Source of the DNA: Spizellomyces punctatus DAOM BR117
Taxonomy: Eukaryota
Assembly: GCA_000182565.2 (NCBI GenBank)
Contig: KQ257452.1
Length of the DNA: 64,000 bases
Strand: one strand, 5' to 3'
Below the pieces are notes generated by a model. That model made no database searches. It was not told the origin of the DNA and saw nothing but the letters and a program-made list of their open reading frames with translations. Positions within the stretch are counted from its first letter, which is position 1. Each line of letters opens with the position of its first letter. The position numbers and the translations under genes are program-made. This document shows positions 23,884-63,354 of this stretch, one piece after another.

Positions 23884-24962
23884 TTATCACTTTGAGACAA
23901 ATAATAATGTATAGGTGACAGAAACTGGCACTAGCTACTACACCAGGGAATAAACCAGCGTAAACTGGCTCGGGAAAAGCTAACTAAGCTACTACTAGGC
24001 AATTATACACGCAATACGTAACGGTTGGTTCTAACCGTATAATTGCCCACCACCACATCGCGTTTCTACTGGGCCTTGATCCGGAACTGTTGATTGACAT
24101 TGAAGTCAGAGTCATCGCATGAGAGTTAATATCGTCAGGGAGACTCACAAGCCGGAGGATTTTCAGTAATGAAGGCTTGGAGACTAAACAAGTGCAAGTC
24201 AGCCAGATGACAGAAATGACAAGAAATGCCATCGGTACATACCAACCAAGCTCAACAAATGTGGCAGCATAATAGCAGTTTTGTTAGCGGATCTGATTGG
24301 TTGCCGCTGGTTCTGATCGCGGTTGCTGTCGGGCAGTTGAGGTCCTCGGCACCACCACATCTGCATTCTCATGATTGGACCGAGTCGCAATGAGAGTTGC
24401 GATGTGGGTCATGATGAGCGTTTGCGCAGATGGTTTGAGAGTCGAGGATGGGTAAAGAGGAAAGAGGGAAGAGACAGCAAAAGGCCCCCTTTTTATAGAC
24501 CTTTGGCATGTGCCTCACCGCAGGTTGGAGGAAAAAAAAAACATTACATTAGCATGCCACAGTGCTTTGATTAGCATGCATGCCTCACCGCTTTGAGGGA
24601 TAGATGGGGGTGCTGATTATGCGATATGATTAACCGGATTATCCGGATAATAATGGGTCTTCGTGCCATTTTCAATCGCCTCCACACTATGTTGCTTGTG
24701 TTGGAACACGTTGACTAAACTGTGCCACTCTTCATTTTGCCTATTTCGGAATGTCCAGTCGGCAAACGAGTCCAGATGGTCGCGAGCAAACGACCAACTC
24801 TGTTCTTGGTGACCGTTTGAACGCTCCAAAGTTCTTCCAACATCTTCGCGTCCTTTGGCATCGCTGGTAGCTTGGTTCTCACTGGCTTGGTTTCGCCTCT
24901 TGCTAGTAGCCACATAGCACAGAAGCTACGGGGAGACCTTCGGACTAGCGTTGGGCGGGCAA

Positions 24963-45002: not shown

Positions 45003-48000
45003 CTATACAGCCCTTCTCTCAACAACTTGATTCCAAATATCCTCATCAACAGTCCCTTTACAAATAAACCGCCACACATGGACTTTTTTCGTCTGCCCAT
45101 ATCGTCGAACCCGTCCAATAGCTTGAGTTTCGCACGCATCATAGACTTCCGGCGTCTCAAGATGCAAAGGGGATACGAAAATAACATGATTGGCTCCCGT
45201 TAGATTTGCTCCACTGGCTTCTTCATTGGTTGCAGTTAAAAGTAGAACCCGAGTTCCATCAAGATCGTGGTCGACATCAAGGTCATCCATATTCTGGAAT
45301 CGTTCCACAGCTTTGCTCATTTTCGTTGCGCCGCCCTCAATCTTGAGGTGGGCGATACGAGCATCGTCGAGCGCCTCGCTCACCTTCTGCTTGAGTTCAG
45401 GAAACTGGACAAAAATCAGGATACGATCCGTACTTGGGATCTTGTCCTTTATCAACGATACGATGGCGGAGAGTTTTGCTCCGTGGCCAGAACCAAAATC
45501 GTCTTGATCGACTCCAAGACTTTCTGGGGTTACTATAAAATTGCTCCGGGCTGCAACTTGACATCCAGGCGTCACGCATGTTTCTTTCTCGGCTTCCTCA
45601 AGCACACATGTTTGGCATCCCAAGTGTCCACAACATGAAAGGAAGACAACCTGGTCATAGTTGTCAGGCAGGTGGAATGATTTTTGACATTTTGGGCAAA
45701 TGACCTCGGCTTGTTTGCGGGTTTGAACATCTCGTACCGCTTGAATATATCGCAATGATCGCAACCGATTGACCAGTTCTTTTTGTACTTTACGTAAACG
45801 GTGGGTATGCTCTCGCAACTCCCATTTCTTGTCAGACAGAGTTGGGGCCTTTTTGGGTTTACCCGTATCTTCATCCTCATCATCATCATCCAAAAAGTCG
45901 TCATCCGCCGATTTCCGTTTAGAAGAACCCACTTTTTTCTTTCCATTTTGCTGCGTTTTCTTGATCATATTCCCAACTGGTTTCAAACTCGTATCTCCCA
46001 TGTTTTCTTTCCCTTTGCCCTTCTTGTTGCCCAATTGTCCCATGTTTTTAACAATCTCCGCGACCAACAGCCCTGTATCGACATCATCGCTTCGTCCGGC
46101 CAGAGCCTGTCCCCACCACCTCTCAAGCGGCAAATCATCTCCTTCTTCATATCCACCATGATCCAAGATCCAAGAATGCAGTGCTTTGGCATCATTCAAG
46201 TGCTCCTCAAACAATTGTCGACATTCCTCCAACTGCGCTTTTCGTTCAATCACAATCTTTTCACAAGCTTCCGCAGCGTTCCTGACGCGCAATTGCTGTT
46301 TTTTGCCATCCCGTCCAGGCGATCGCAATTCCAAATCAAAATGAGAGCACCGAATCAAAAGGGCTTGTTCGGGTGACTTCATTTTTTCTAATGCGAGACC
46401 TAGCCGGAGTTCACGGTCCCCTTGAGCTGCCTTGCCTGCCCTGACCGTCTTTCTGACATTCATCTCGACACTCAGCAAGTAATGCTGTAGTTCGTAATAG
46501 AGGGCAAGTTCTGCAGGGGGTAACTGTATAGGCATGATATGCTCCTCACACAAAATCTCATCAATCTCTGCAATATTCTGACGCACGAAGCCATCCAAAA
46601 ACGTTTGAGCAACCGCATGTCGTCGGGCATGCCAAGCAGCCGTATGCACCTCCCGGAACGAATGAAATTTTTCGGCAGCTGTTCGCTCATTAAGTCGCTT
46701 TTTAACCATATCTTCACCCATTTCGGCATCATCATCCACTCCTAGATGCAAACCAAGGAAACTTGCAATGGTTTTGACGGTAGCGAATTCGTGGACCGGA
46801 GAAGTTCCAGATAGGACCCACCGGTAATTGGATCGTAGTTCCAAGATGCATGCATAGTCTTTGCCCGTTACATAGGTGTACTCGTCAACTACGATACGGT
46901 TGAAATAAAACATTTCGAGAGGTGGGCATTGCATTTTTTTCCAGTTTTTTTGTACGGATTGTGTTTGGAGGTTCCATGGATCTTTATCTTCACGGGATGT
47001 GGTATCGGCATTTTTAGATTTGGACGTTTTACGTTTGTCGTAGGTGTCCATCACATCACTACTATCGCCATCTTCCAGGTCATTCAACTCTTCACCTGTT
47101 TCGTCTGTTTGTTGCTTCAACTGATCCCGGTAGGCCTTGGTGCCCCTCACCTGCTTTTGGACAGGTACAGTCTCATCACTTCCTTGCTGTTTCCTCCTCA
47201 ATAACCCCTCTTTAACAGCCTGGATAACCAACTTGACGCCGTCGGTTCCGCCAATCTCGGTCAACTCCTTGACGCGAATTTTGAGCTTTTCCAAAGCCTC
47301 CTGATATCGGATATTAAAATACCGTCCCTCAGAAACAGGCAAGAGCTCACTTCCAGCCAATCCAGATAAATTAGACCAGTAATTGATACCCGTCAAAACA
47401 CTCCGCGCGCAAATAATGATATCCGCTTCCTCAAAATCCGCGACAGTCGTTTTATTAAAATTAGCCACATTGAGCATGGTGAGGACTTTGAACCGGTTTC
47501 CAGTAAACTTTTTGATTTCCGCTGGCCATTGTGCTACCAAATGAGATGGAACAATGATTAATGTTGCTTTGATGGGGATACGCCCTTCGAGTTGCGAGGG
47601 AGGCGGGGGAGGCGGGGGAGGTAGGGACGCAGCGTAGTCAATGAGACCGAGTGTGATGGCGGTCTTTCCGTATCCGACTTGGTCAGCTAGGACACCCCCT
47701 CGAACAAATACTTGCCGCTCCGCCTTGGCTTCTACACGCCACCCCAACGGTTCCAAAACAGCTTCTGAAACCTCTTCTTCAACAAAAGGTTCAATGGTAG
47801 CTTGCTCTTGACGCACCATCCACGTTAAAGACCGACTTTGCTCCTTTCTCAGCTTGTACCGCTCAAAATGCGGCGGCTGCTCATGTTCCGGATCCAGTTT
47901 GTTACTCTTGACTTCAAGAGGTTTCAATTTCTCTTCTTGGTCAGTAAATTCTGTGGAAAGTCGCCACGATACTCGAGGGGATTCGGGACGGTCTTTACTA

Positions 48001-51000
48001 GGTAATCTCGATAGGGCCCGATGAACCAAAGACGCAACATTCACGCCGAGACGGAGCATACCCAAGGTACCATCCAAACGGAATTGAGCGACAAAAGGGG
48101 CGGGTCGCCGCTTTAGATTCTGTTCGTAAGCACCAGCTTGTTGGGGATCTTCGAATGCAGAGGCACTCGTTCCTTTGCGGATCCAGAGCAGTTCTGGAGG
48201 TGTTGGAGCACATCGCTCGCAAGGAGACGGTTTCCCTCGCTAACACATACAAAAAAAAAAAAATCAAAAATCAGCAACTACTCCAAACTTTTTATTAGAT
48301 TCACTCACATCATCAATATCATGCACACCAGGAACATCCATCCAATCCTGAAGGGCAGTAATTCCCTTTATCCGCTCCGTAATCCACGCCAAAGACTCAA
48401 ACGTCGACCGTCCCCGATGCAACAAATCAATTTCCTCCCACTTGTCACGAGGCCATACAGGCTCTGCATGCGTAAGCGGGACTTTACACGTCAAGACGGC
48501 AGTAGCGGTTTTACATGCATCCTGTTTGCAGGAAACTGATAATGGTCCTGCTGGTGTGCTGACGGTACCCTGGAGAGTAGCCTCGGTGGTTGGGACGAGT
48601 CGTGCGCATTCCAAGGTAGCCCATTTGCCTTTGACGTGACAAGCAACGGATTGAGGTCCGTCAACAGAACTAGGTCGCCATTTGGGATCCAATGTAGCGT
48701 TTACAAGGCGGACTTCTCCATAGGGTAATCGACGTGCATTGGTTGAGAAATTGAATGCATCCCCACTTTGCTCACCGCAAGGTTGTGGATCAAAAAAAAA
48801 GAACAATGGGAGTTTTTGGTCATCGGTGGATGCTGGTCGCTTTTTATGGAGGGCGTTCATGGCCGTTCCGCACTTTTCCAGCAAGTCATATGTACCCGAG
48901 AGATCGCGATCCAAATACACCCGTGCATCATCAGGGATCCCGGAAATCTCCAACTGAGACCACCATTTCCCAGATGCAAGGTGATTCTGCAAGCCAATAC
49001 GTGCTTCCCATGATTCAACAAGTTCACCCCGTCCAGTGATCGTAATGGAAAATGATTTGGATGCAGGGAAACATACTTCCCACGTCCCACTGAAAAAACT
49101 CGTGTCCTGGCTCTTGAGATCCAAATACATTCTGGCTGCTGGGCTAGCAAGGAGACTTCGTAGACGGCCATTGACAGGTTCGTCCTCGGGGGCTTTAATA
49201 GTTAACTGCCATACGGGCTGGTGGGGATCGATGATGAGTTCAAGTATCGCCATGGGTGCGTCATAAGTAACAACCCAATACTCTTGTCGCTTGACAGATC
49301 TGAATCGGAATTCATTCTTGACGGCGTTCACAACAGCGTCGTGCCAGAGTGTCCAATCCTTGCTGACAAGATCGATCGTGTCATGCTGAGATTTGAGCGC
49401 TTCTAGTGCATCCAGTGTAATGCCTTGGAGATGAAGCCGCATGGGTAAGGCCGACCTAAGCTCCTTCTCAAATCCCGTGGGAGATAGTCGATTATCACTT
49501 GTAACCTGTTCATAATAATGTTCAGGCCGAATTCCGCATTTAACACAAGAAGTTGCCCAACATTCTCGGCATTTCTGAATCTTTTCTTTGGTGACACCCG
49601 TTCGTCCCTCACAGTCACACTGCCGGCTACTTCGATCCGCATCCGCAACCAAAGCCTCCAACGACATGTTGGTATAGGTGCCTAGTTCGAGTGGGAGTTC
49701 ATTGAGCTGGTCATCTCCCCCAATGGTAGGAAACGGATCCAATTCAATTTGTTTCGGAGGTACACCCGACCCCGGCTCCAAAGTATCCAAAGACACAACA
49801 AGAGCAGCCAACATGCACGCACCAACCACGGTGGTGGTCATGGCGTTACCAGCCAAATCATGCAAATTCCGCTCCGATTCGCGGGTCAGTAACAATTCAT
49901 CAACAGGGATTCCCTGGAGATTCAGCGCCTCACGACCGACAACAGGGCCTCCACGGCTCGTCACAAACGGTATAACCCTCGGAGTCAAACAAGGACAAAT
50001 ACCCGGCCGAACACTTGTACTAATCCGATCAACATTCTGACTTAGTTCCCATACCAGCGTCTTGGACATGGCGTCAATGCCCTTGACAGCCATCTTTAGG
50101 TACAGAATATCAATGGAATCAAGCACACGCGTAGACTGACTAGCCCCCCAATCATTCCACGCATAATCAGGAAACCGACACACACTATTCGGTTCCCATC
50201 GCGAAAAAGGACGCTTGATACCTAATCCTTCTTCAATCCGCTGACGTTCATGCCGACTTTCACAGCGTTCCCAATCCGTTCGAGCGGCCCTGCGATCCAC
50301 ACTCGCACGCGCAAGGTCGAGTCGAGCTTGATGGACACGAGGATCATCTGTTGGGAGGAGGAAGGCTTCCAAAGGGGATGAAGCGGGTCGTTGCATGGAT
50401 TTGACAAGGTTGATCCACATTTCTGGGAGGTTTTTGGGTCCTTCTGCTGCAGCAAAGAGGTACCCACGTGTTCGGGTATGCGGGATATAGTAATCCTTGG
50501 TATCAAACCGGGTAGCCGTGACTTTATACCGGATTTTAGTAAATTCGTGTTGCATGCTCGTCCAATCGGCTCCACAGACGTTTTCGAGGATAACGAGTTT
50601 AGGACGACATGTTTTGACCCAGTTTAACATTCCCCAAAACGTTCGGCCAGATTCGCCGCCGGCGTGGATGCCCTTTTTCTTGTTATTTAGGTTAGAGTAG
50701 TCGACGCAGGAGGTTCCTGCTACGAGGAGGTCGACTTTGACGTTTGGGACTTGCACGAGGGATCCGTATGCGGTGGTTGCTTTTGGGTTGGCGAGTTCGC
50801 ATACATCGCGGAATAAAATGGGTGGGGAAAAGTTGCGTTCAATGTAGGCTTGTTTAAAAGGTTCGATTTCACAACTAAAGACATGGTCAATCTCAAATTT
50901 GATTCCATGGTGACGTTCAATGGAGCGAGATATTTGGCCGAGGGCCAATAGGGGACTCTCGGTTCCGCTGCACATGGTAGCGACACGGAGTTTGCGGCCT

Positions 51001-51584
51001 TGGAGTCGTTTGGCTACTGTGGCGCTTTCGGGTAGGTTTTTGACCATGTCGAAAAACATGGCTGGGATATCTTGGATGGGGGGAAATTCCGTGGCATGCA
51101 GTTTTTGTTTCTTTCGCGCGGGGCCGGTGATGGGTTTATGTTGCAGTCGCTTTTTGATGGGGGATGCTTTCTGCGGGGTGAATTTGAAGATGTTCTTCCA
51201 GGCGGCTATTGGGGACTGTAACGGGGTCAGTTTGGTTGGTGAAGTCATGGGTGGTGAAGGAACCTCTGGCAACGTCTTGACCCGTTTCGAAAGAGGCGAG
51301 TCAAAGGCTGCATTTTGTCTCCTTGTATATTCCACCGCCGCTCGTTTGGTCCCGACTCTCGACGTAATGACCACAAACGGTCCCTTCACATCCTTCTTGA
51401 CCGACGACCGTCTCCGCAGACTCCTCCGTCGAATATCATTCCCCTTGAACGCATCCTCGTCAACAGATAATTCCTCCTCACTCGCGACACTTGGCTCAGA
51501 CATCGAGTCGGATATATCATCACCGCCATTCCAGTCCTCGTCATCCGAAACGACAAGAGACTTTCGTTTGCGTACCATTACCAT
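45003..51584 (-). CDS. DNMT5: DNMT5-type C5-cytosine methyltransferase fused to RING and SNF2 ATPase (about 2,170 aa, 2 exons)
   Basis: MTase motifs LRVATMCSGTESP, SCEIEPFKQAYI, LVAGTSCVDYS (catalytic Cys), ILENV, R.RGY, LAGNAM. SNF2 motifs GGVLADQVGYGKT, VVDEY, VLSGTSP, QAIGRVRRYGQ. RING-like CPKC..CCGH.GC..C..C...C. Intron 48240-48308 (GTGAGT...TTAG) keeps the frame. Confidence 0.9.
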
Positions 51585-54429: not shown

Positions 54430-55161
54430 ATGCATTTACATTTCCCATTCCTCTTGTCGCTCCTAAGCATCCTCACACTAACGACCTCCCAAACCATAAA
54501 ACACATTTCCCAATCCGAACTCACCAAACTCGCCACCCAAGCCGACCAAAACATTACATTTATCCCCCACACGGTGTTCAAGCAGACGATATCCGATGGG
54601 ACCTGGTTGGTGTTTTTTGGGGCGAGGTGGTGCAAGTATTGTAAACAGTAGGTTTTCAATGTTTTGTTTGGTAGCTTTAGAATGGGAGTTGAAGTGTTGG
54701 GCGGTTTAGGTTGTCGCCGACTTGGTTGACGATTCAGGAGCGGGTGCTCGATGCGGTGCAGGGGATCAAGATGGGAAAAGTGGATTGCACGGATCAAGAA
54801 GGTAGGTTTTGGAAAGAGTGGATCTTTAAAGAAAAAGACAAGAGGGTTGATATCGATTTTCTTTAATACAGAGTTTTGTGAAGAGGAGGGTGTGGATGGG
54901 TATCCAACACTTCATCTGTACGTTATTTTTGCAATTATTTTGTTGGGTGTTGTAAATGATGGCTGATGACATGGCATAGATACAATAACGGTAAACTGAT
55001 TGAAGAATACGATCAAGGTCACGATCTAAAGAGTTTGTACACGTATGTTGTGACAAAGGTATGTTTTTTGTGTGTGTGGATTGTACTGGTGGTTCATGCG
55101 ATGGTAATTTGTTCATGTGTAGGCGAGTTATTATCAGAAATTGCGACGAGAGGATTTGTGA
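54430..55161 (+). CDS. ER-resident single-thioredoxin-domain PDI-family protein
   Basis: Signal peptide, WLVFFGARWCKYC (WCxxC), MGKVDCT, GVDGYPTL, last exon ending ...RREDL* (KDEL-like). Four introns. Confidence 0.85.
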
Positions 55162-55406
55162 TATGTGTGATTGCGTGGTGATGATGGCGATGATGGTGAT
55201 GAGTTTGTGAGAACGGCGTGGGATGAGAGGATGGGAGCGGGTACGAGTAGAATGGGAATGCGGGGAATGATGGTAGATGTGAGGTCCATGATGGGACATT
55301 AGAAAGGACAAGGACGTGTCGAATAATGTGTGCCATCGTTGCCTAGAGGCATTTGTCGAGATAGGGCATATAGAATGTGTATGGGATAAACAAGCCTGTC
55401 CAGAGA

Positions 55407-55497
55407 ATACAAGATGATGGATAGTGCGGACGCCGGTGGGTATTGGCACTAGCACCCGCACCAGGGATGAACCGCGCGACAACCGGCTCGGAAAACC
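55407..55497 (-). ncRNA. Predicted Fanzor omegaRNA: about 75-nt scaffold (55497-55422) + about 15-nt flank-derived guide (55421-55407)
   Basis: - strand GGUUUUCCGAGCCGGUUGUCGCGCGGUUCAUCCCUGGUGCGGGUGCUAGUGCCAAUACCCACCGGCGUCCGCACUA|UCCAUCAUCUUGUAU. It lies between the stop codon and the element end, with complementary segments GCCGGU/ACCGGC and UGGUGCGG/CCGCACUA. Exact ends are inferred from characterised Fanzor loci. Confidence 0.82.
55424..55455 (+). repeat. Right-end terminal inverted repeat (32 bp)
   Basis: Matches the left TIR with one inserted base and two substitutions. Confidence 0.92.
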
Positions 55498-55510
55498 TAA
55501 TCTAACCAAT

Positions 55511-57415
55511 CTAAGCTACGGCTGGAACACCCCTGCTGAACACTTCTGGTCTACCGTGTCCATCCAACATTGATTGCACGATCGTTAGCATATTGCAGGT
55601 GCTCAGCGTATCTCGATTCCAGTAGCGCATCGTCCAGGCTTGCTGCAAACAGTTAGGGTTGGTACAACCCAGCAATCCATGGACTTTTTCAATCTTGCCT
55701 TCTCGTCGTCGATAAGGTCTTGAATGAGGTCGTTCTTTGAATTTTTTCTCCACAAACTCAGATGAGGAACAGCGAGGGCAAACAGATGAGGTCTTGTACT
55801 CGTCGAGAAGGAAACAATCAATGCGGTTGCGCTTAAAGAGGGTGCGCCAGCCTTTTGTCTTTGATGAGGTCTGAAATCTTGCAGTTCGACCGGCGTCGCT
55901 CCAATCACCCATTACAACAGTAAGGTTTTCACCGTACTTGTTGCGCATGTTACTTATGAGGTCTGATTCGCTCTTCTGACGGTTTATGAAGGAGTGCCAT
56001 TTCCATCGAGTATGAGCAGGATGCGAATAGAAGTCCTTGCGGCGGTTCCAGTCGACACGACGGACGAGGAGGTAGCGGAGGAAATCCATGAGGTTCATCG
56101 TCTTGTGAGATGGTATTCGCGATTCTATAAGGTCCATTCCCGCTTCCTTCTTCATCCACTGCCGTTCCTTTTGCTGCCGACGGCTTCCAGTCTCCTTGCA
56201 GCGTTGATTGGCGGTGTAACGGAAGATGGTGCCCTTGTTGTCTTGGCAGTAGAGAACGTCGCGCTTGTTTGGGTCGATAACGACGACGTTCTCTGCTGCT
56301 CGACAAGCAGGCAAGTTTTTTTCCACATATACTGCCTTCACCTCAGCTGCTAGAGTCTTTGCCGACTTCTTCTTTCCTCCGCGCTTTCCGTACTTGTCGG
56401 CGTCAGGGTGTTTCAAATACACAGACACCGAGGTTCCGTCCGTCGTGATCGAGCCTTCAAACTGCATACCGCCGCCGCGGCGAGACCGAAAAGCCTTCGT
56501 GCGTAGATTGCAGACGCGCAACCACAGATCATCCTTTTCGACCGCTTCTGCCTCTCTGCGAAAAATGCAAAGAATGTGGGTGTAGAGAATGACGGTGTCA
56601 ATCCGGACATGGCTTTGAATGAGAGACCGGCGAAGAGGTATCGCGCTGAACCGTCGGAAGCCATGTCGTTCATACAGCCCAGAGAGTTTGCAGTACGCAG
56701 GAAAAAATGACATCGGATCAGCAACAATGGCGTAGGCAAGGGGATTGTCGGGAAGGAATGGGAGATCCAATGACCAGATCTCTTCTAGAAGTTCACTCTC
56801 TTCAGCAGTCAAATCATCGAGCGACTCAGGCACGATATCAAAAAGGAAAATTGACTTCAAGTAGCGAAGACGAGCAAAGAAAGCGTTTCGCGCATCGCTT
56901 TTCAGTGGTAGTCGCTGCTTCTGTCCCTTCAGATCAAGCCGCAGATTAATGTACCGGAGCAGCATCATCATGAAGTGTTCCTGGACATTGACCTTCAGAT
57001 TCGTCATCATACTCGCTGTCAGGTAATTGACTGATTGTTGCTCGCCTCGCAGGTTTGGATGAGAAAAATCAACGATGCGGCAGTACCGTCGAACATATGG
57101 CCACAAGCATTCACGTAACGCCTTCTTCGCATCAGTTTTTGGTTGCCACGATTCACCTTTGTTGAGAAGATAGAGGATGACTTCAATCGTCTCTTGATTT
57201 ACCGTGGGAAAAGCTGGTGCTGATGAAAGGAGATAGAATTTCAGTGCGTGGGAAGCATGGTTGGCGAGTTGATGGATGATGGCAATGTAATCTAGAAGCC
57301 GTTGGCGGGAGATCTCGTTTGGCAGGAAAGCTTTTGCAAAGGAAGTCTTGTTGCAGGTATGTAAGCAAGTAGGTTTGTCGAGTTTTTCGAGTTTTTGCTT
57401 TTTCTTTGGTGGCAT
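55511..57415 (-). CDS. Fanzor1: Fanzor1 RNA-guided endonuclease (eukaryotic TnpB/Cas12-like), 634 aa, intronless
   Basis: N-terminal NLS-like PPKKKQK; TDGTSVSV; RuvC-I VVVIDPN; RuvC-II LLDEYKTSSVC; zinc finger CPRC...CTNPNC; RuvC-III WNRD. Closely resembles, but is not identical to, SpuFz1 as I recall it. Confidence 0.95.
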   Translation of the reverse strand: MPPKKKQKLEKLDKPTCLHTCNKTSFAKAFLPNEISRQRLLDYIAIIHQLANHASHALKFYLLSSAPAFPTVNQETIEVILYLLNKGESWQPKTDAKKALRECLWPYVRRYCRIVDFSHPNLRGEQQSVNYLTASMMTNLKVNVQEHFMMMLLRYINLRLDLKGQKQRLPLKSDARNAFFARLRYLKSIFLFDIVPESLDDLTAEESELLEEIWSLDLPFLPDNPLAYAIVADPMSFFPAYCKLSGLYERHGFRRFSAIPLRRSLIQSHVRIDTVILYTHILCIFRREAEAVEKDDLWLRVCNLRTKAFRSRRGGGMQFEGSITTDGTSVSVYLKHPDADKYGKRGGKKKSAKTLAAEVKAVYVEKNLPACRAAENVVVIDPNKRDVLYCQDNKGTIFRYTANQRCKETGSRRQQKERQWMKKEAGMDLIESRIPSHKTMNLMDFLRYLLVRRVDWNRRKDFYSHPAHTRWKWHSFINRQKSESDLISNMRNKYGENLTVVMGDWSDAGRTARFQTSSKTKGWRTLFKRNRIDCFLLDEYKTSSVCPRCSSSEFVEKKFKERPHSRPYRRREGKIEKVHGLLGCTNPNCLQQAWTMRYWNRDTLSTCNMLTIVQSMLDGHGRPEVFSRGVPAVA

Positions 57416-57465
57416 GATGATATCTGTGGAAAAAGACGAAAGCCTGGGAAAATGGGCACGACAAC

Positions 57466-57472
57466 TTATATA
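57466..57472 (-). promoter_or_regulatory. Putative TATA box for the Fanzor gene
   Basis: CC-TATATAA-G on the - strand about 50 nt upstream of the ATG, inside the element. Confidence 0.5.
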
Positions 57473-57545
57473 GGACTTTTTGGATCAAACCAGAGTTCAT
57501 GAGTCTAAATCGAGTAAAATTATGATTAAATTGGTTGGAATCTTT

Positions 57546-57576
57546 GTACTAGTGCCAATACCCATCGGCTCCGCAC
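57546..57576 (-). repeat. Left-end terminal inverted repeat (31 bp), preceded on the - strand by 5'-CATA
   Basis: + strand GTACTAGTGCCAATACCCATCGGCTCCGCAC-TATG. Confidence 0.92.
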
Positions 57577-57703
57577 TATGTACCTTGTAAGATATCGGAC
57601 GCTGAGTCACACGCGACTGTCCACGCAGCTAAGCAACACGCTTCTGGCTGTGATTCCCGCTGTGATTCCCACTTCAACTATTGTCTGTTTGACATTTTGC
57701 AAA

Positions 57704-58481
57704 ATGGCCCGTCACTCGACTAGCGCAGTGCGCCCCAGCACATCCCGCCAACCAAGCACCCCACCACCTCCACCAACCCCACCATCACCAGCCCTCTTTT
57801 CTCCCACCCCAATCCTCCACGACCCATACGAAACAGACATTGAAGACCTCACGACAGCAGCACTCGAAAAAACAGACGCATTTTTCCGGGAATTCAAGCT
57901 TTTTGTATTGCAGAATCGGGTCTTGGAGACGGGTGTGGGTGTTATTGTTGGTCAGGCGTATGTATTTATAAGAGATTTGCCAGAACGAGAGCATTTTGCC
58001 AATTCGGTCCATCATTATATAGATTCCAAGATTTTGTGCGTAGTTTTGTCAACGATGTCATGGTACCCCCTCTTACACTCGTCACCGGCCACCGCCTCAT
58101 CAACATCTTTTTTGTTCTCCGCCGAGGCAAAACCGGCCGTCGTCCCAAAACGATTGAAGAAGCCGCGACCGATGGAGCCGTGACAGTCAACCTAGGCCGA
58201 TTCATTCATCAGACACTCAATTTTTTTACGGTTGGGATGGCGGTGTATTGGTTTTTGAGGGGGTTGAGATGGTATTTTCGGTTACGAGTTCAGTTGCCGG
58301 ATACGAAAAAGTGTCCGTTTTGTTTGCAGGATGTTGCCTTGTTGGCTTCTAGGTGCGTGCGATACTTTGTTTGCTGGATGATTCATGTCTTTTCATGTTT
58401 TGTTTATTTTTTTTAATTGATTCTAGGTGTTGCTTTTGTACTTCGATGCTCTCGGAATCTCATGCACCCCCAACTGAATAA
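57704..58481 (+). CDS. mscL: MscL-family large-conductance mechanosensitive channel with C-terminal zinc ribbon
   Basis: FFREFKLFVLQNRVLETGVGVIVGQA-FQDFVRSFVNDVMVPPL, VTVNLGRFIHQTLNFF, TKKCPFC...R-CCFCTS. Two introns. Confidence 0.85.
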
Positions 58482-61465: not shown

Positions 61466-63354
61466 TGCAGTTTTTGGCTAGAAGTGTGTTGACGTTGTAT
61501 ATACACTTGTGGGTGTATTGTTTTTGTACTATTGGTGTGTTGTTGTGTGCGTTTATGATGATGATGCATGTGGAGACTTTTCAAAACCACCATGCAATTC
61601 GTGCAAATGTTTCTTTTCTGTTGATGCTGTCCTTTTTATTGGTACTTTTGCAGAGTTGGGTGGGATGGACCCTATTTGATCTTTGGCGGCTTTGCAGGCA
61701 GAAAGTGCAGACAAATACACTGGCGTGGAGTGGAACCACTTGGGTACTGGCGACAACCAACGTATGTAGATACAGCTACTGGACCCACTAGGCAATACAT
61801 AACGGTTGATCTAACCGGGTAATTGTTGTCAAAGGGGGCCCTGATATGCTCAGTACAAGGAGCTTTTTACACCCGTCTAGCAAAAGAGGTCGACCGGCCA
61901 AAACTGTCTCCAAAGCCAATTTTCACAGCGATATTGCAATGTATTGCATTAGCTCTCTGTGTGTGTGTAGTAACTCTCAACCACCATGAGAGAAAATCGT
62001 AATAAACCTCGTTTCAAAGCTTTTTTGATCGGATAATGTGATAGATACTAGTAAAGCAGTCGATAATGAGCTTTATGAAAACCGCATGGAATCACAGGAG
62101 CACAGTAGAAGGAGTAGTAGTCTGGGCGATTGCTTGTTATTTGTCGGGAGTTACAGGTCCATCAGTATCCAGATCATTCTCATCGAAAATTGTTTTTGAT
62201 GAGTTGGCCAAATTGCTTGAGAGTCAGAACAAGAGAAGGGGAATGTGATGCGAAATCAACTCATCAGATGGCAAGAGACAGTCACTTTATCGCATGCATG
62301 TAAATGGACCCATTTTCATATGGCCTTAGGGTAACTGACCTTGGGATATTCCCATACACGACACCATACTCTACTATAATCTACATATCCATAACAAGAG
62401 ATGCCCAAAAACTTGGGACCGGCGATCATCACAGTCTACATCGCCTTTTTTTGAAGCTTTACAAGAGTCCAATCCTAATGCTGCTTTCCCATCTCACCTC
62501 CTGTCCCTACTGCTTGCCATTCACAGTCTTTTACAAAGCATAACCATATTCATACCCATCCACCTCCTCAACACCCTCTCATATTCTAAAAGTTTGGTTT
62601 TTGGAAAAAAATAAAAATACAGTGTGTGTGTCAAACAGGTTCGTTTTGTCTAGCATTCCGACCATGGAAAAGTTTGTAATCACTTTTGAAAACTATACCG
62701 GTTTTTGATATCGGTTGATTTATGAAATTGTACTGTTGGAGTGAGTAGAAACGTGTACTAGTGCAAATGGCAGATACGAAGTAAAGAAGGAATCACACTT
62801 TTATTCTGTCGCATTTTGTTTGAATATGGTGAATGGAATGCAAGGCATTGTTTTGAAAAGAGGTAATGATATCCATCTTGTCATTTTGCACATTTGTATC
62901 GTCAGACCGGAAAAGGTCGTCCTGGGGAGCTTTCGCTACATAATCCAAATGAAGAAACTTTTCTTCCTACTTTTCTACAAGACGACCTACAAGAAAACAA
63001 TCCCAATCTCTCCGAAACCATCTCGAGAAAAAAAAAAAATGAGGCCCATTATAATTGGAAAACGTTGAACGAAGAAGGCTATCCCGTTGACGGTTTTTGG
63101 CAGGTGTGCGTGGAGGACAATCTGTTTTGACCCTTATGTCTATTCTTGCATAGTAATAGTATGTCATATTGGATCTACATCCTTTTTTTTTTGCTATTAC
63201 TTGTATCGCTCCACTCAGATGTAAACACTCGCAAAACCTCGTAACTACTCGCCTACCATCCCAGACTCACCTCATCATCATAGCAACATGGGCAAAACCC
63301 CCTCATTAGCAACAACCACACCACTGACCATTCACAACAGACTTACCTACCAGC

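What the first reader, a model, noticed from the sequence alone, without database searches (positions are those of the whole stretch)
57577..57580. 5'-CATA at the left end: the reconstructed empty site is a perfect TAM + guide target
The - strand reads ...AAGGTA-CATA|GTGCGG at the left end and CCGCAC|TA-TCCATCATCTTGTAT at the right. Removing the element and one TA gives 5'-CATA-TCCATCATCTTGTAT. CATA is the TAM reported for SpuFz1, and the following bases equal the predicted guide. In the occupied allele the TAM and target are 2.15 kb apart (the target is preceded by ACTA), so the locus avoids cutting itself. Inference: the nuclease cuts excised or empty alleles and drives copy-back repair, as shown for TnpB. 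It also implies the mobilising transposase prefers CATA sites.
Basis: partly seen in the sequence, partly recalled or inferred. Interest (0 to 1): 0.78.

Follow-up and report, generated by a model that had tools for sequence, protein, structure and literature searches.

The report
Known Fanzor transposon with CATA flank
This is an ordinary copy of the already described SPu-1 Fanzor transposon, and its CATA left flank matches the published cutting motif, a layout already in print whose proposed copy-back role is still untested in any Fanzor.

Summary
On the - strand a 2153-bp element (57576..55424) has 31/32-nt inverted ends. TA flanks both sides, CA precedes the left TA (CATA, 57580..57577), and TCCATCATCTTGTAT follows the right TA, so the target is preceded by ACTA. 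The 634-aa ORF is 85-87% identical to SpuFz1 and keeps all four listed active-site residues (the D/E/D triad and N385) and five of six TAM contacts (R96 is K).

The guide match is true by construction. Only the CA is informative, and CA precedes 7% of TA sites here. A second, ORF-less "ghost" relative at 24687..23907 also has CATA on its left.

The layout is already published:
- TA duplications (PMC3627910).
- Conserved CA upstream of the 5' repeat, and TAM CATA (PMC10432273).
- 5' duplication read as part of the TAM, 3' duplication inside the ωRNA scaffold (PMC13565253).

Homing has not been shown for any Fanzor. No empty allele was found, though the search had low power. A transposase preference for CATA is not established. 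The motif sits on one side only, and reads show flanks with T at -4.

Verdict: correct observation, known system, low novelty.

The parts
55424..57576 (-). Full-length SPu-1-type Fanzor1 element, inverted end to inverted end (2153 bp)
   Evidence: matches the published description of about 2.1 kb, roughly 30-nt inverted repeats and TA flanks (PMC3627910; PMC10432273)
57579..57580 (-). CA dinucleotide upstream of the left TA; together with the TA it reads CATA, the published SpuFz1 TAM
   Evidence: [quoted passage not shown]
57577..57578 (-). Left TA (putative target-site duplication; second half of CATA)
   Evidence: 'putative TA TSDs' in PMC3627910
57546..57576 (-). Left terminal inverted repeat (31 nt)
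   Evidence: 2 mismatches and 1 indel against the right repeat
55511..57415 (-). Intact 634-aa Fanzor1 ORF, a paralogue of SpuFz1
   Evidence: 8gkh, E=0; 85-87% identity to SPPG_07727; D383, N385, E541, D606, Q129, Q130, N133, R291, Y345 kept; R96 is K
55422..55499 (-). [quoted passage not shown]
   Evidence: fold -32.1 kcal/mol, z -1.8; 8 of 200 shuffles fold as well; 76% similarity to the ghost ωRNA region; loose ends of family reads at 55500/55504; - strand RNA depth 129-162, not assignable to this copy
55424..55455 (-). Right terminal inverted repeat (32 nt; one extra base at 55431 relative to the left repeat)
   Evidence: table 4 (base at 55431 missing in X1's one contig, 4 of 5 X18 reads and 4 of 10 X19 reads, probably from other copies)
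55422..55423 (-). Right TA (putative target-site duplication; predicted to pair inside the scaffold stem)
55407..55421 (-). Predicted 15-nt guide and its DNA match in the right flank; preceded by ACTA in the occupied locus
   Evidence: native guides of 14-15 nt (PMC10432273)
23907..24687 (-). Second family member in the window: ORF-less ghost Spu-1-type element (781 bp) with a decayed right repeat (18 of 25 match)
   Evidence: by my count from the alignment the left repeat differs from the Fz repeat at about 7 of 30 positions, as published for ghost loci
24688..24691 (-). CATA upstream of the ghost element's left end

Best explanation
The locus is one intact copy of the SPu-1 transposon family of a Spizellomyces punctatus-type genome. 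It carries a Fanzor1 RNA-guided nuclease, a paralogue of SpuFz1, and its ωRNA.

Shown here:
- A TIR-bounded 2153-bp element flanked by TA, with CA in front of the left TA.
- An intact nuclease ORF with the catalytic residues kept.
- A structured non-coding stretch that runs through the right inverted repeat and the 3' TA.

Inferred:
- The ωRNA ends with about 15 nt copied from the right flank.
- The nuclease reads CATA, that is CA plus the single TA of the unoccupied site, through its REC and WED domains.
- The one sequence in the genome that combines TAM and guide match is therefore the same site without the element.
- The occupied locus is immune because the element separates TAM and target by 2155 nt, and the target is preceded by ACTA.

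Most likely consequence, not shown for any Fanzor: a never-occupied or seamlessly restored allele is cut and then repaired from the occupied copy. This would be homing, as shown for TnpB of IS605 and IS607. Alleles carrying an excision footprint would not be cut.

The whole layout is already described for this family.
For: - Sequence anatomy.
- Nuclease identity and residues. Nine of ten named SpuFz1 residues are kept.
- Fold: the 3' UA pairs in the terminal stem and the following 15 nt are free.
- A second in-window family member has CATA at its left flank, so 2 of 2, against a background of 7.05%.
- Another copy seen in reads also shows CATA (35 X18 reads, loose end at 57583).
- Literature read: TAM 5'-CATA and loss of cleavage on any TAM mutation; conserved CA upstream of the 5' IR in Fz and ghost loci; 14-15-nt guides beyond a 75-nt scaffold; the legend of Extended Data Fig. 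3a draws TAM regions at the loci (PMC10432273). Putative TA TSDs (PMC3627910). 5' TSD as part of the TAM and 3' TSD in the scaffold (PMC13565253).
Against: - No empty allele or element-skipping joint was seen in four runs (0 of the 8 joints listed bridges the element). Power was low: the only raw-read DNA run, X19, has reads of at most 38 nt; X1 is spliced RNA-like contigs and X2 is low-depth contigs of unrecorded kind.
- No transposase lies inside the element or in 10 of the 12 other ORFs of 300 aa or more in the window. None was found by the authors inside Spu-1 repeats. The excision chemistry is therefore unknown, and a DDE-type excision would not recreate the target.
- At least two left flanks of other copies have T, not C, at -4 (X18 93 reads and an X1 contig at 57579; X2 record in table 5c).
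- The TAM of this paralogue is unmeasured, and its R96 equivalent, which contacts C(-4) in SpuFz1, is K.
- The fold z-score is modest: -1.8, with 8 of 200 shuffles as good.
- Expression of this copy's own ωRNA could not be separated from that of its relatives (one search was run at 85% likeness).
Confidence: 0.62

Rival explanations
1. The CA is only the footprint of the target preference of an unknown trans-acting TA-inserting transposase. The Fanzor TAM co-evolved with it or matches by descent, and the nuclease has no homing role at this cut-and-paste element. It may serve another purpose, for example acting in trans on other targets.
For: The published discussion leaves the biological role open and suggests action in trans, and it reports no transposase within Spu-1 repeats (PMC10432273). 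DDE excision already leaves a break, which the review gives as a reason why OMEGA nucleases rarely accompany DDE transposases (PMC13565253, section 6.2). No empty allele was seen.
Against: A dimeric TIR transposase is expected to show a palindromic preference (established knowledge). The right flank after TA is TC in the Fz copy and TT in the ghost, so TG occurs in 0 of 2, and one further copy seen in reads reads AG (X2 loose end at 55432). The measured TAM includes the TA that exists as a single copy only in the unoccupied site, which is hard to explain if that site is not the natural target.
Confidence: 0.22
2. TA is the terminal dinucleotide of the inverted repeats and not a target-site duplication. 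The unoccupied site would then read ...TACA directly followed by the guide match and would lack the TAM, so the empty site is not a substrate.
For: TA is its own reverse complement, so a TA at both ends fits either reading. PMC3627910 calls the TSDs 'putative'. PMC10432273 places CA directly upstream of the 30-nt IR, which implies that its IR begins with TA. No empty site was available.
Against: The biochemically measured TAM is CATA, not TACA, and every TAM base is required. The review reads the 5' TSD as part of the TAM. TA duplications are the hallmark of the Mariner-type Fanzor1 carriers described in PMC3627910.
Confidence: 0.08
3. CATA at this locus is a coincidence.
For: CA precedes 7.05% of TA sites in the window. 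The guide match itself carries no information.
Against: The second family member in the window also has CATA, giving a joint chance of about 0.005. Conservation of CA across Fz and ghost loci is published.
Confidence: 0.03

Closest known systems
SPu-1 / SpuFz1 loci of Spizellomyces punctatus DAOM BR117 (Bao and Jurka 2013, PMC3627910; Saito et al. 2023, PMC10432273)
   Same: A single Fanzor1 ORF in an element of about 2.1 kb. Inverted repeats of about 30 nt, TA flanks and CA upstream of the left repeat. [quoted passage not shown] Ghost relatives without an ORF.
   Different: This copy's protein is a paralogue, 85-87% identical to the crystallised SpuFz1 (SPPG_07727). It has K at the R96 position and small indels. 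Its right repeat has one extra base. No identical protein is in the searched collection: the best of 40 hits is 85%.
IS200/IS605 TnpB-ωRNA (e.g. ISDra2), restorative homing
   Same: The TAM sits at the left flank, the guide is transcribed from the right flank, and the joint without the element is the only TAM-plus-target site. The occupied locus is immune.
   Different: Those elements have no inverted repeats and no duplication. They are moved by an HUH transposase with scarless excision, and homing is shown experimentally. Here there are inverted repeats and TA flanks, the transposase is unknown, and homing is untested.
IS607 TnpB (ISXfa1; Yoon et al. 2023, PMC10711439)
   Same: An invariant flanking nucleotide created by the insertion chemistry is absorbed into the guide-RNA scaffold, so the guide starts after it. 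This parallels the 3' TA here.
   Different: IS607 uses a serine recombinase with a GG crossover and has no inverted repeats. Its TAM is G-rich.
Mariner-type Fanzor1 carriers (PGv-1, PUl-4 etc.; PMC3627910)
   Same: TA duplications, inverted repeats and Fanzor1 cargo. Some members are non-autonomous.
   Different: Some of those elements encode a Mariner transposase. Here no transposase was found in the element or in the 10 of the window's 12 other ORFs of 300 aa or more that were scanned. Assignment of SPu-1 to Tc1/mariner is not established.

Membership tests
SPu-1 Fanzor1 element | Fanzor1 protein with RuvC D-E-D residues and a zinc ribbon, close to SpuFz1 | tested here: met
   8gkh, E=0, 1240 bits; 85-87% identity; D383, N385, E541 and D606 equivalents kept
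SPu-1 Fanzor1 element | Terminal inverted repeats of about 30 nt bounding about 2.1 kb | tested here: met
   31/32-nt repeats, 2153 bp
SPu-1 Fanzor1 element | TA on both flanks and conserved CA upstream of the left end | tested here: met
   the same holds in the ghost copy
SPu-1 Fanzor1 element | Expressed ωRNA of 88-90 nt spanning the right repeat and 14-15 nt of flank | tested here: inconclusive
   Fold. In one search, - strand RNA depth is 129-162 over 55362-55615 and 0 over 55235-55361, but reads were accepted at 85% likeness and cannot be assigned to this copy. Rfam has no matching family.
TnpB-type restorative homing system | The nuclease TAM equals the motif at the left flank | tested here: met
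   The flank is CATA. The TAM CATA was measured for the 87%-identical SpuFz1, not for this protein. Five of six TAM-contact residues are kept.
TnpB-type restorative homing system | Scarless excision that recreates TAM plus target | not testable with these tools
   No transposase is known for the family. No genome is held. No empty or excised allele appears in reads.
TnpB-type restorative homing system | Cleavage of the empty site and repair from the occupied copy | not testable with these tools
   Needs biochemistry or genetics. The review lists this as shown for TnpB and IscB only.
Tc1/mariner (IS630-Tc1-mariner) non-autonomous element | TA target-site duplication | tested here: inconclusive
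   TA is present on both sides. Without an empty site, a duplication cannot be told apart from terminal TA bases of the repeats.
Tc1/mariner (IS630-Tc1-mariner) non-autonomous element | A related DDE/D transposase with matching inverted repeats somewhere in the genome | not testable with these tools
   No genome is held. There is none in the element and none in 10 of the 12 other ORFs of 300 aa or more in the window.

The most novel reading that the evidence does not exclude
The one-sided CA is seen at the left end of both window copies, and print reports it as conserved in Fz and ghost loci alike. The right flank lacks the mirror TG. This asymmetry may not be a transposase preference. It may instead be the genomic trace of Fanzor activity, by one of two routes. 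Insertions that land behind CA could be the only ones kept, because only they can be homed or restored. Alternatively, the nuclease's protein-only recognition of CATA could orient and steer integration. Either route would be the first in-genome evidence that a eukaryotic Fanzor shapes the fate of a TIR/TA transposon family, and it could be tested from flank logos stratified by copy age.
Probability: 0.2. Interest if true: 0.6.

Novelty: already known. Interest (0 to 1): 0.2.

Why it matters
The natural function of Fanzor nucleases is still open. Both PMC10432273 and the 2026 review PMC13565253 say so. This locus shows cleanly the geometry on which the homing hypothesis rests: an intact nuclease, an intact guide region, a TAM made of CA plus the 5' duplication, and an immune occupied allele. 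With the neighbouring ghost copy it gives two ready-made substrates for a cleavage test.

It adds no new principle.

Tried and rejected
- **Whole genome:** not held, so flanks of all copies could not be tabulated.
- **Metagenome scans:** the protein query gave 175 pattern matches and 0 relatives by tblastn. A 21-nt repeat pattern gave 0 matches.
- **Rfam:** one chance-level match to an unrelated lncRNA family (TCL6_1, 18.9 bits against a gathering score of 60, E 0.47), nothing relevant.
- **Local Pfam:** no family for the nuclease, although its relatives carry a precomputed PF26935. I take this as a gap in the local library, not a property of the protein.
- **The look-up of sequencing runs:** no RNA holder listed.
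- **Read laying:** no joint skipping the element in X18, X19, X1 or X2. The raw DNA reads are at most 38 nt. The culture may be clonal and, I assume, haploid. This says nothing about whether empty alleles exist. Only the best-supported loose ends were printed (416 more not shown), so the flanks seen there are anecdotes and not a count: CATA once, T at -4 at least twice.
- **Search for more copies in the window:** only the ghost at 24687..23907 and a 35-nt fragment at 61792-61825.
- **Supplementary Data 1 and 2 of PMC10432273:** these list all Fz and ghost loci and would probably settle the flank statistics and show whether this locus is among them.
- **Alternative boundary considered:** a TA at 57582..57581 as the duplication, with CATA inside the element. 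I rejected it as less likely because one other copy seen in reads has AA at those two positions (flank read from the loose end) and the ghost copy has AA there too.

Full report
**1. What is in the sequence**

Read on the - strand (checked by script), the region holds a 2153-bp element from 57576 to 55424.
- It starts with GTGCGGAGCC... and ends with ...GGCGTCCGCAC.
- The two ends are inverted repeats of 31 and 32 nt that differ by two mismatches and one extra base at 55431.
- TA lies directly outside both ends (57578..57577 and 55423..55422).
- After the right TA comes TCCATCATCTTGTAT (55421..55407). In the occupied locus this stretch is preceded by ACTA.
- The only long ORF inside runs from 57415 to 55511, is 634 aa long and has no stops.

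**2. What the ORF is**

- The ORF matches the solved SpuFz1 chain 8gkh from end to end (E=0, 1240 bits).
- In the large protein collection its best relatives are 17 proteins named Spizellomyces punctatus DAOM BR117 among 40 hits. None is identical, and the best is 85%.
- P0001 (SPPG_07727, 638 aa) is the crystallised protein. It matches chain residues 396-1032 over its residues 2-638, and all ten residues named in PMC10432273 fall at the stated numbers.
- The window protein is 87% identical to P0001 in the alignment.
- It keeps the catalytic or metal-binding residues D383, N385, E541 and D606, and the TAM contacts Q129, Q130, N133, R291 and Y345.
- R96, which according to the paper contacts C(-4), is K here. 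Two other S. punctatus paralogues (P0005, P0015) also have K there.
- The copy therefore looks functional, but its own TAM has not been measured.

**3. The guide RNA region**

- The 93 nt from 55499 to 55407 fold into two stems at -32.1 kcal/mol (z -1.8; 8 of 200 shuffles fold as well).
- The terminal stem pairs an internal GGUGCGGGUGC stretch with the right inverted repeat.
- The stem includes the U and A of the 3' TA. The following 15 nt are unpaired.
- This fits the published picture of a 75-nt scaffold followed by a 14-15-nt variable guide (PMC10432273, section 7). It also fits the review's statement that the 3' duplication is part of the scaffold (PMC13565253, section 6.2).
- Rfam holds no matching family.

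**4. RNA reads**

- In run X18 the unique flank 55235-55361 is covered only by first mates on + (98.9 against 0). X1's spliced contig there has GT..AG introns on +. I therefore infer that first mates in X18 carry the sense of the RNA.
- On that reading, - strand RNA covers 55362-55615 at depth 129-162 and stops before 55361.
- This agrees with short transcripts ending just beyond the right end.
- Because I accepted reads at 85% likeness, these reads come from the whole family and prove nothing for this copy.

**5. Is CATA more than chance?**

- The match between guide and right flank is true by definition and carries no information.
- The informative letters are the CA. In the window CA precedes 421 of 5968 TA sites (7.05%), so one locus is not significant.
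- A local blastn found a second family member. It is a 781-bp element without an ORF at 24687..23907 on the - strand.
- Its left repeat differs from the Fz repeat at about seven of 30 positions (my count from the alignment), as published for 'ghost' loci. Its right end carries a 76%-similar ωRNA region, and its right repeat is decayed (18 of 25 positions match the left one).
- The ghost is flanked by TA on both sides, and its left flank again reads CATA (24691..24688).
- Two of two family members in the window thus carry the motif, a joint chance of about 0.005.
- Loose read ends add anecdotes from other copies. One reads CATA and even shares GTACATA with this locus (35 X18 reads). At least two different flanks read T instead of C at -4 (93 X18 reads with an X1 contig, and an X2 record).
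- Only the best-supported rows were printed (416 not shown), so these cannot be counted.
- The published statement is that CA is conserved upstream of the 5' repeat in both Fz and ghost loci.

**6. Search for an empty allele**

- No whole genome is held. Two metagenome scans found nothing.
- None of the eight joints listed by read laying bridges the element.
- Power was low. X19, the one clearly genomic raw-read run, has reads of at most 38 nt. X1 turned out to be spliced and so RNA-like. X2 has low depth and contains the filled left junction without a difference (record 15).
- This leaves the question open.

**7. How it most likely works**

- *Shown:* the anatomy described above.
- *Taken from published biochemistry on the 87%-identical paralogue:* the TAM is CATA, every TAM base is needed, and cuts fall 16-21 nt from the TAM.
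- *Inferred:* the unoccupied site, made of CA, one TA and the right flank, is the only place where TAM and guide match meet. In the occupied locus they are 2155 nt apart and the target follows ACTA, so the element does not cut itself.
- The argument has some force beyond analogy. The measured TAM contains a TA that stands next to the guide match only if the TA is a duplication of a single target TA.
- From there, homing into a never-occupied allele, or restoration after a seamless excision, is the natural consequence. This has been shown only for TnpB and IscB of IS605 and for TnpB of IS607 (PMC13565253, section 5.6). The Fanzor authors state that the biological role is unknown and that they found no transposase inside Spu-1 repeats.
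- If the mobilising enzyme is a DDE cut-and-paste transposase, as the inverted repeats and TA suggest, excision leaves a break or a footprint. A footprint would put other bases in front of the target (established knowledge; the review makes the same point).

**8. The transposase-preference claim**

- A dimeric TIR transposase is expected to prefer a palindromic site, which would put TG after the right TA.
- The two window copies read TC and TT there, and a further copy seen in reads has AG.
- The motif is therefore one-sided in the few cases visible here.
- That leaves two possibilities that I could not separate: an oriented insertion preference, or a filter after insertion in which only copies behind CA benefit from the nuclease. 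The second is the more novel reading. A flank table stratified by copy age would decide between them.

**9. Comparison with what is known**

- Bao and Jurka (PMC3627910, passages) described SPu-1 as about 2100 bp with 33-bp repeats, putative TA duplications and 17 full-length copies.
- Saito et al. (PMC10432273, section 7, discussion and legends) counted 42 Fz and 134 ghost loci, noted the conserved CA, measured CATA, and drew TAM regions at the loci.
- Jiang et al. [quoted passage not shown]
- Yoon et al. (PMC10711439, passages) showed for IS607 that the fixed flanking base belongs to the scaffold, and they colour TSDs in Fanzor2 guide RNAs.
- The 2026 review (PMC13565253, passages) states the general rule outright: the 5' TSD is part of the TAM and the 3' TSD is in the scaffold.
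- Three literature searches turned up no experimental test of Fanzor homing.
- The finding is thus an accurate re-derivation of a published architecture at one more copy.

**10. Context**

- The element lies between two + strand host genes. Upstream is a thioredoxin-like gene with four short introns, whose transcript contig runs into the right repeat (joints and X1 record 1; weak Pfam match). Downstream is an MscL-like gene (intron 57957-58023).
- No transposase was found among 10 of the 12 other ORFs of 300 aa or more in the window.

**11. Verdict**

The geometry and the self-avoidance are sound. Homing and a transposase preference remain inference.
- Novelty: already known.
- Interest is low, apart from the open question of why the CA is one-sided.

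Noticed in passing
window 23907-24687 (-): An ORF-less ghost Spu-1-type element of 781 bp, longer than the roughly 550 nt given in print. It has CATA at its left flank, TA on both sides, and a right repeat decayed mostly by C-to-T type changes on the - strand. Its predicted guide would be the 15 nt at 23904..23890.
   Followed up: yes
window 61792-61825: A 35-nt stretch 86% similar to ghost positions 643-677 (E 3e-4). It may be a fragment of another family member.
   Followed up: no
window 57581-57590 and 24692-24701 (-): The two left flanks in the window also share ACAAG at -12..-8. Another copy seen in reads shares GTACATA with the Fz locus. This could be an extended target preference or chance. 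With three flanks the sample is too small to judge.
   Followed up: partly
window 55121-55450 (+): A spliced host transcript contig (X1 record 1, GT..AG introns at 54647-55121) continues 27 nt into the right inverted repeat. The element therefore sits at or in the 3' UTR of the thioredoxin-like gene. The repeat part of the contig lacks the base at 55431 and may be assembled from other copies.
   Followed up: partly
window 57267-57647 (+): + strand RNA, antisense to the 5' part of the Fanzor gene, at depth 118-200 in X18. Most of these reads carry letters of other copies (for example 134 of 167 at 57437), so they come mainly from paralogous elements.
   Followed up: no
window 55431: The right inverted repeat has one extra base relative to the left repeat. 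Reads and contigs without it (X1's one contig, 4 of 5 X18 reads, 4 of 10 X19 reads) suggest that other copies lack it. It falls in the terminal stem of the predicted ωRNA.
   Followed up: partly
window 45003-51584 (-): Adjacent large ORFs with an SNF2-related domain and a C-5 cytosine DNA methylase domain. Cytosine methylation in this genome could bear on the C-to-T decay seen in the ghost repeat and on the T-for-C flanks.
   Followed up: no
PMC11423790, Results, first paragraph: The sentence giving the TAMs of GtFz1 and SpuFz1 'respectively' lists them in the opposite order to PMC10432273 (CATA for SpuFz1, TTAAN for GtFz1). I take this to be a slip in that text.
   Followed up: no
window 55511-57415 (-): The local Pfam copy gives no family for this protein, while all 40 relatives carry a precomputed PF26935. 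No identical protein is in the collection, so this copy seems not to be annotated as a gene.
   Followed up: partly
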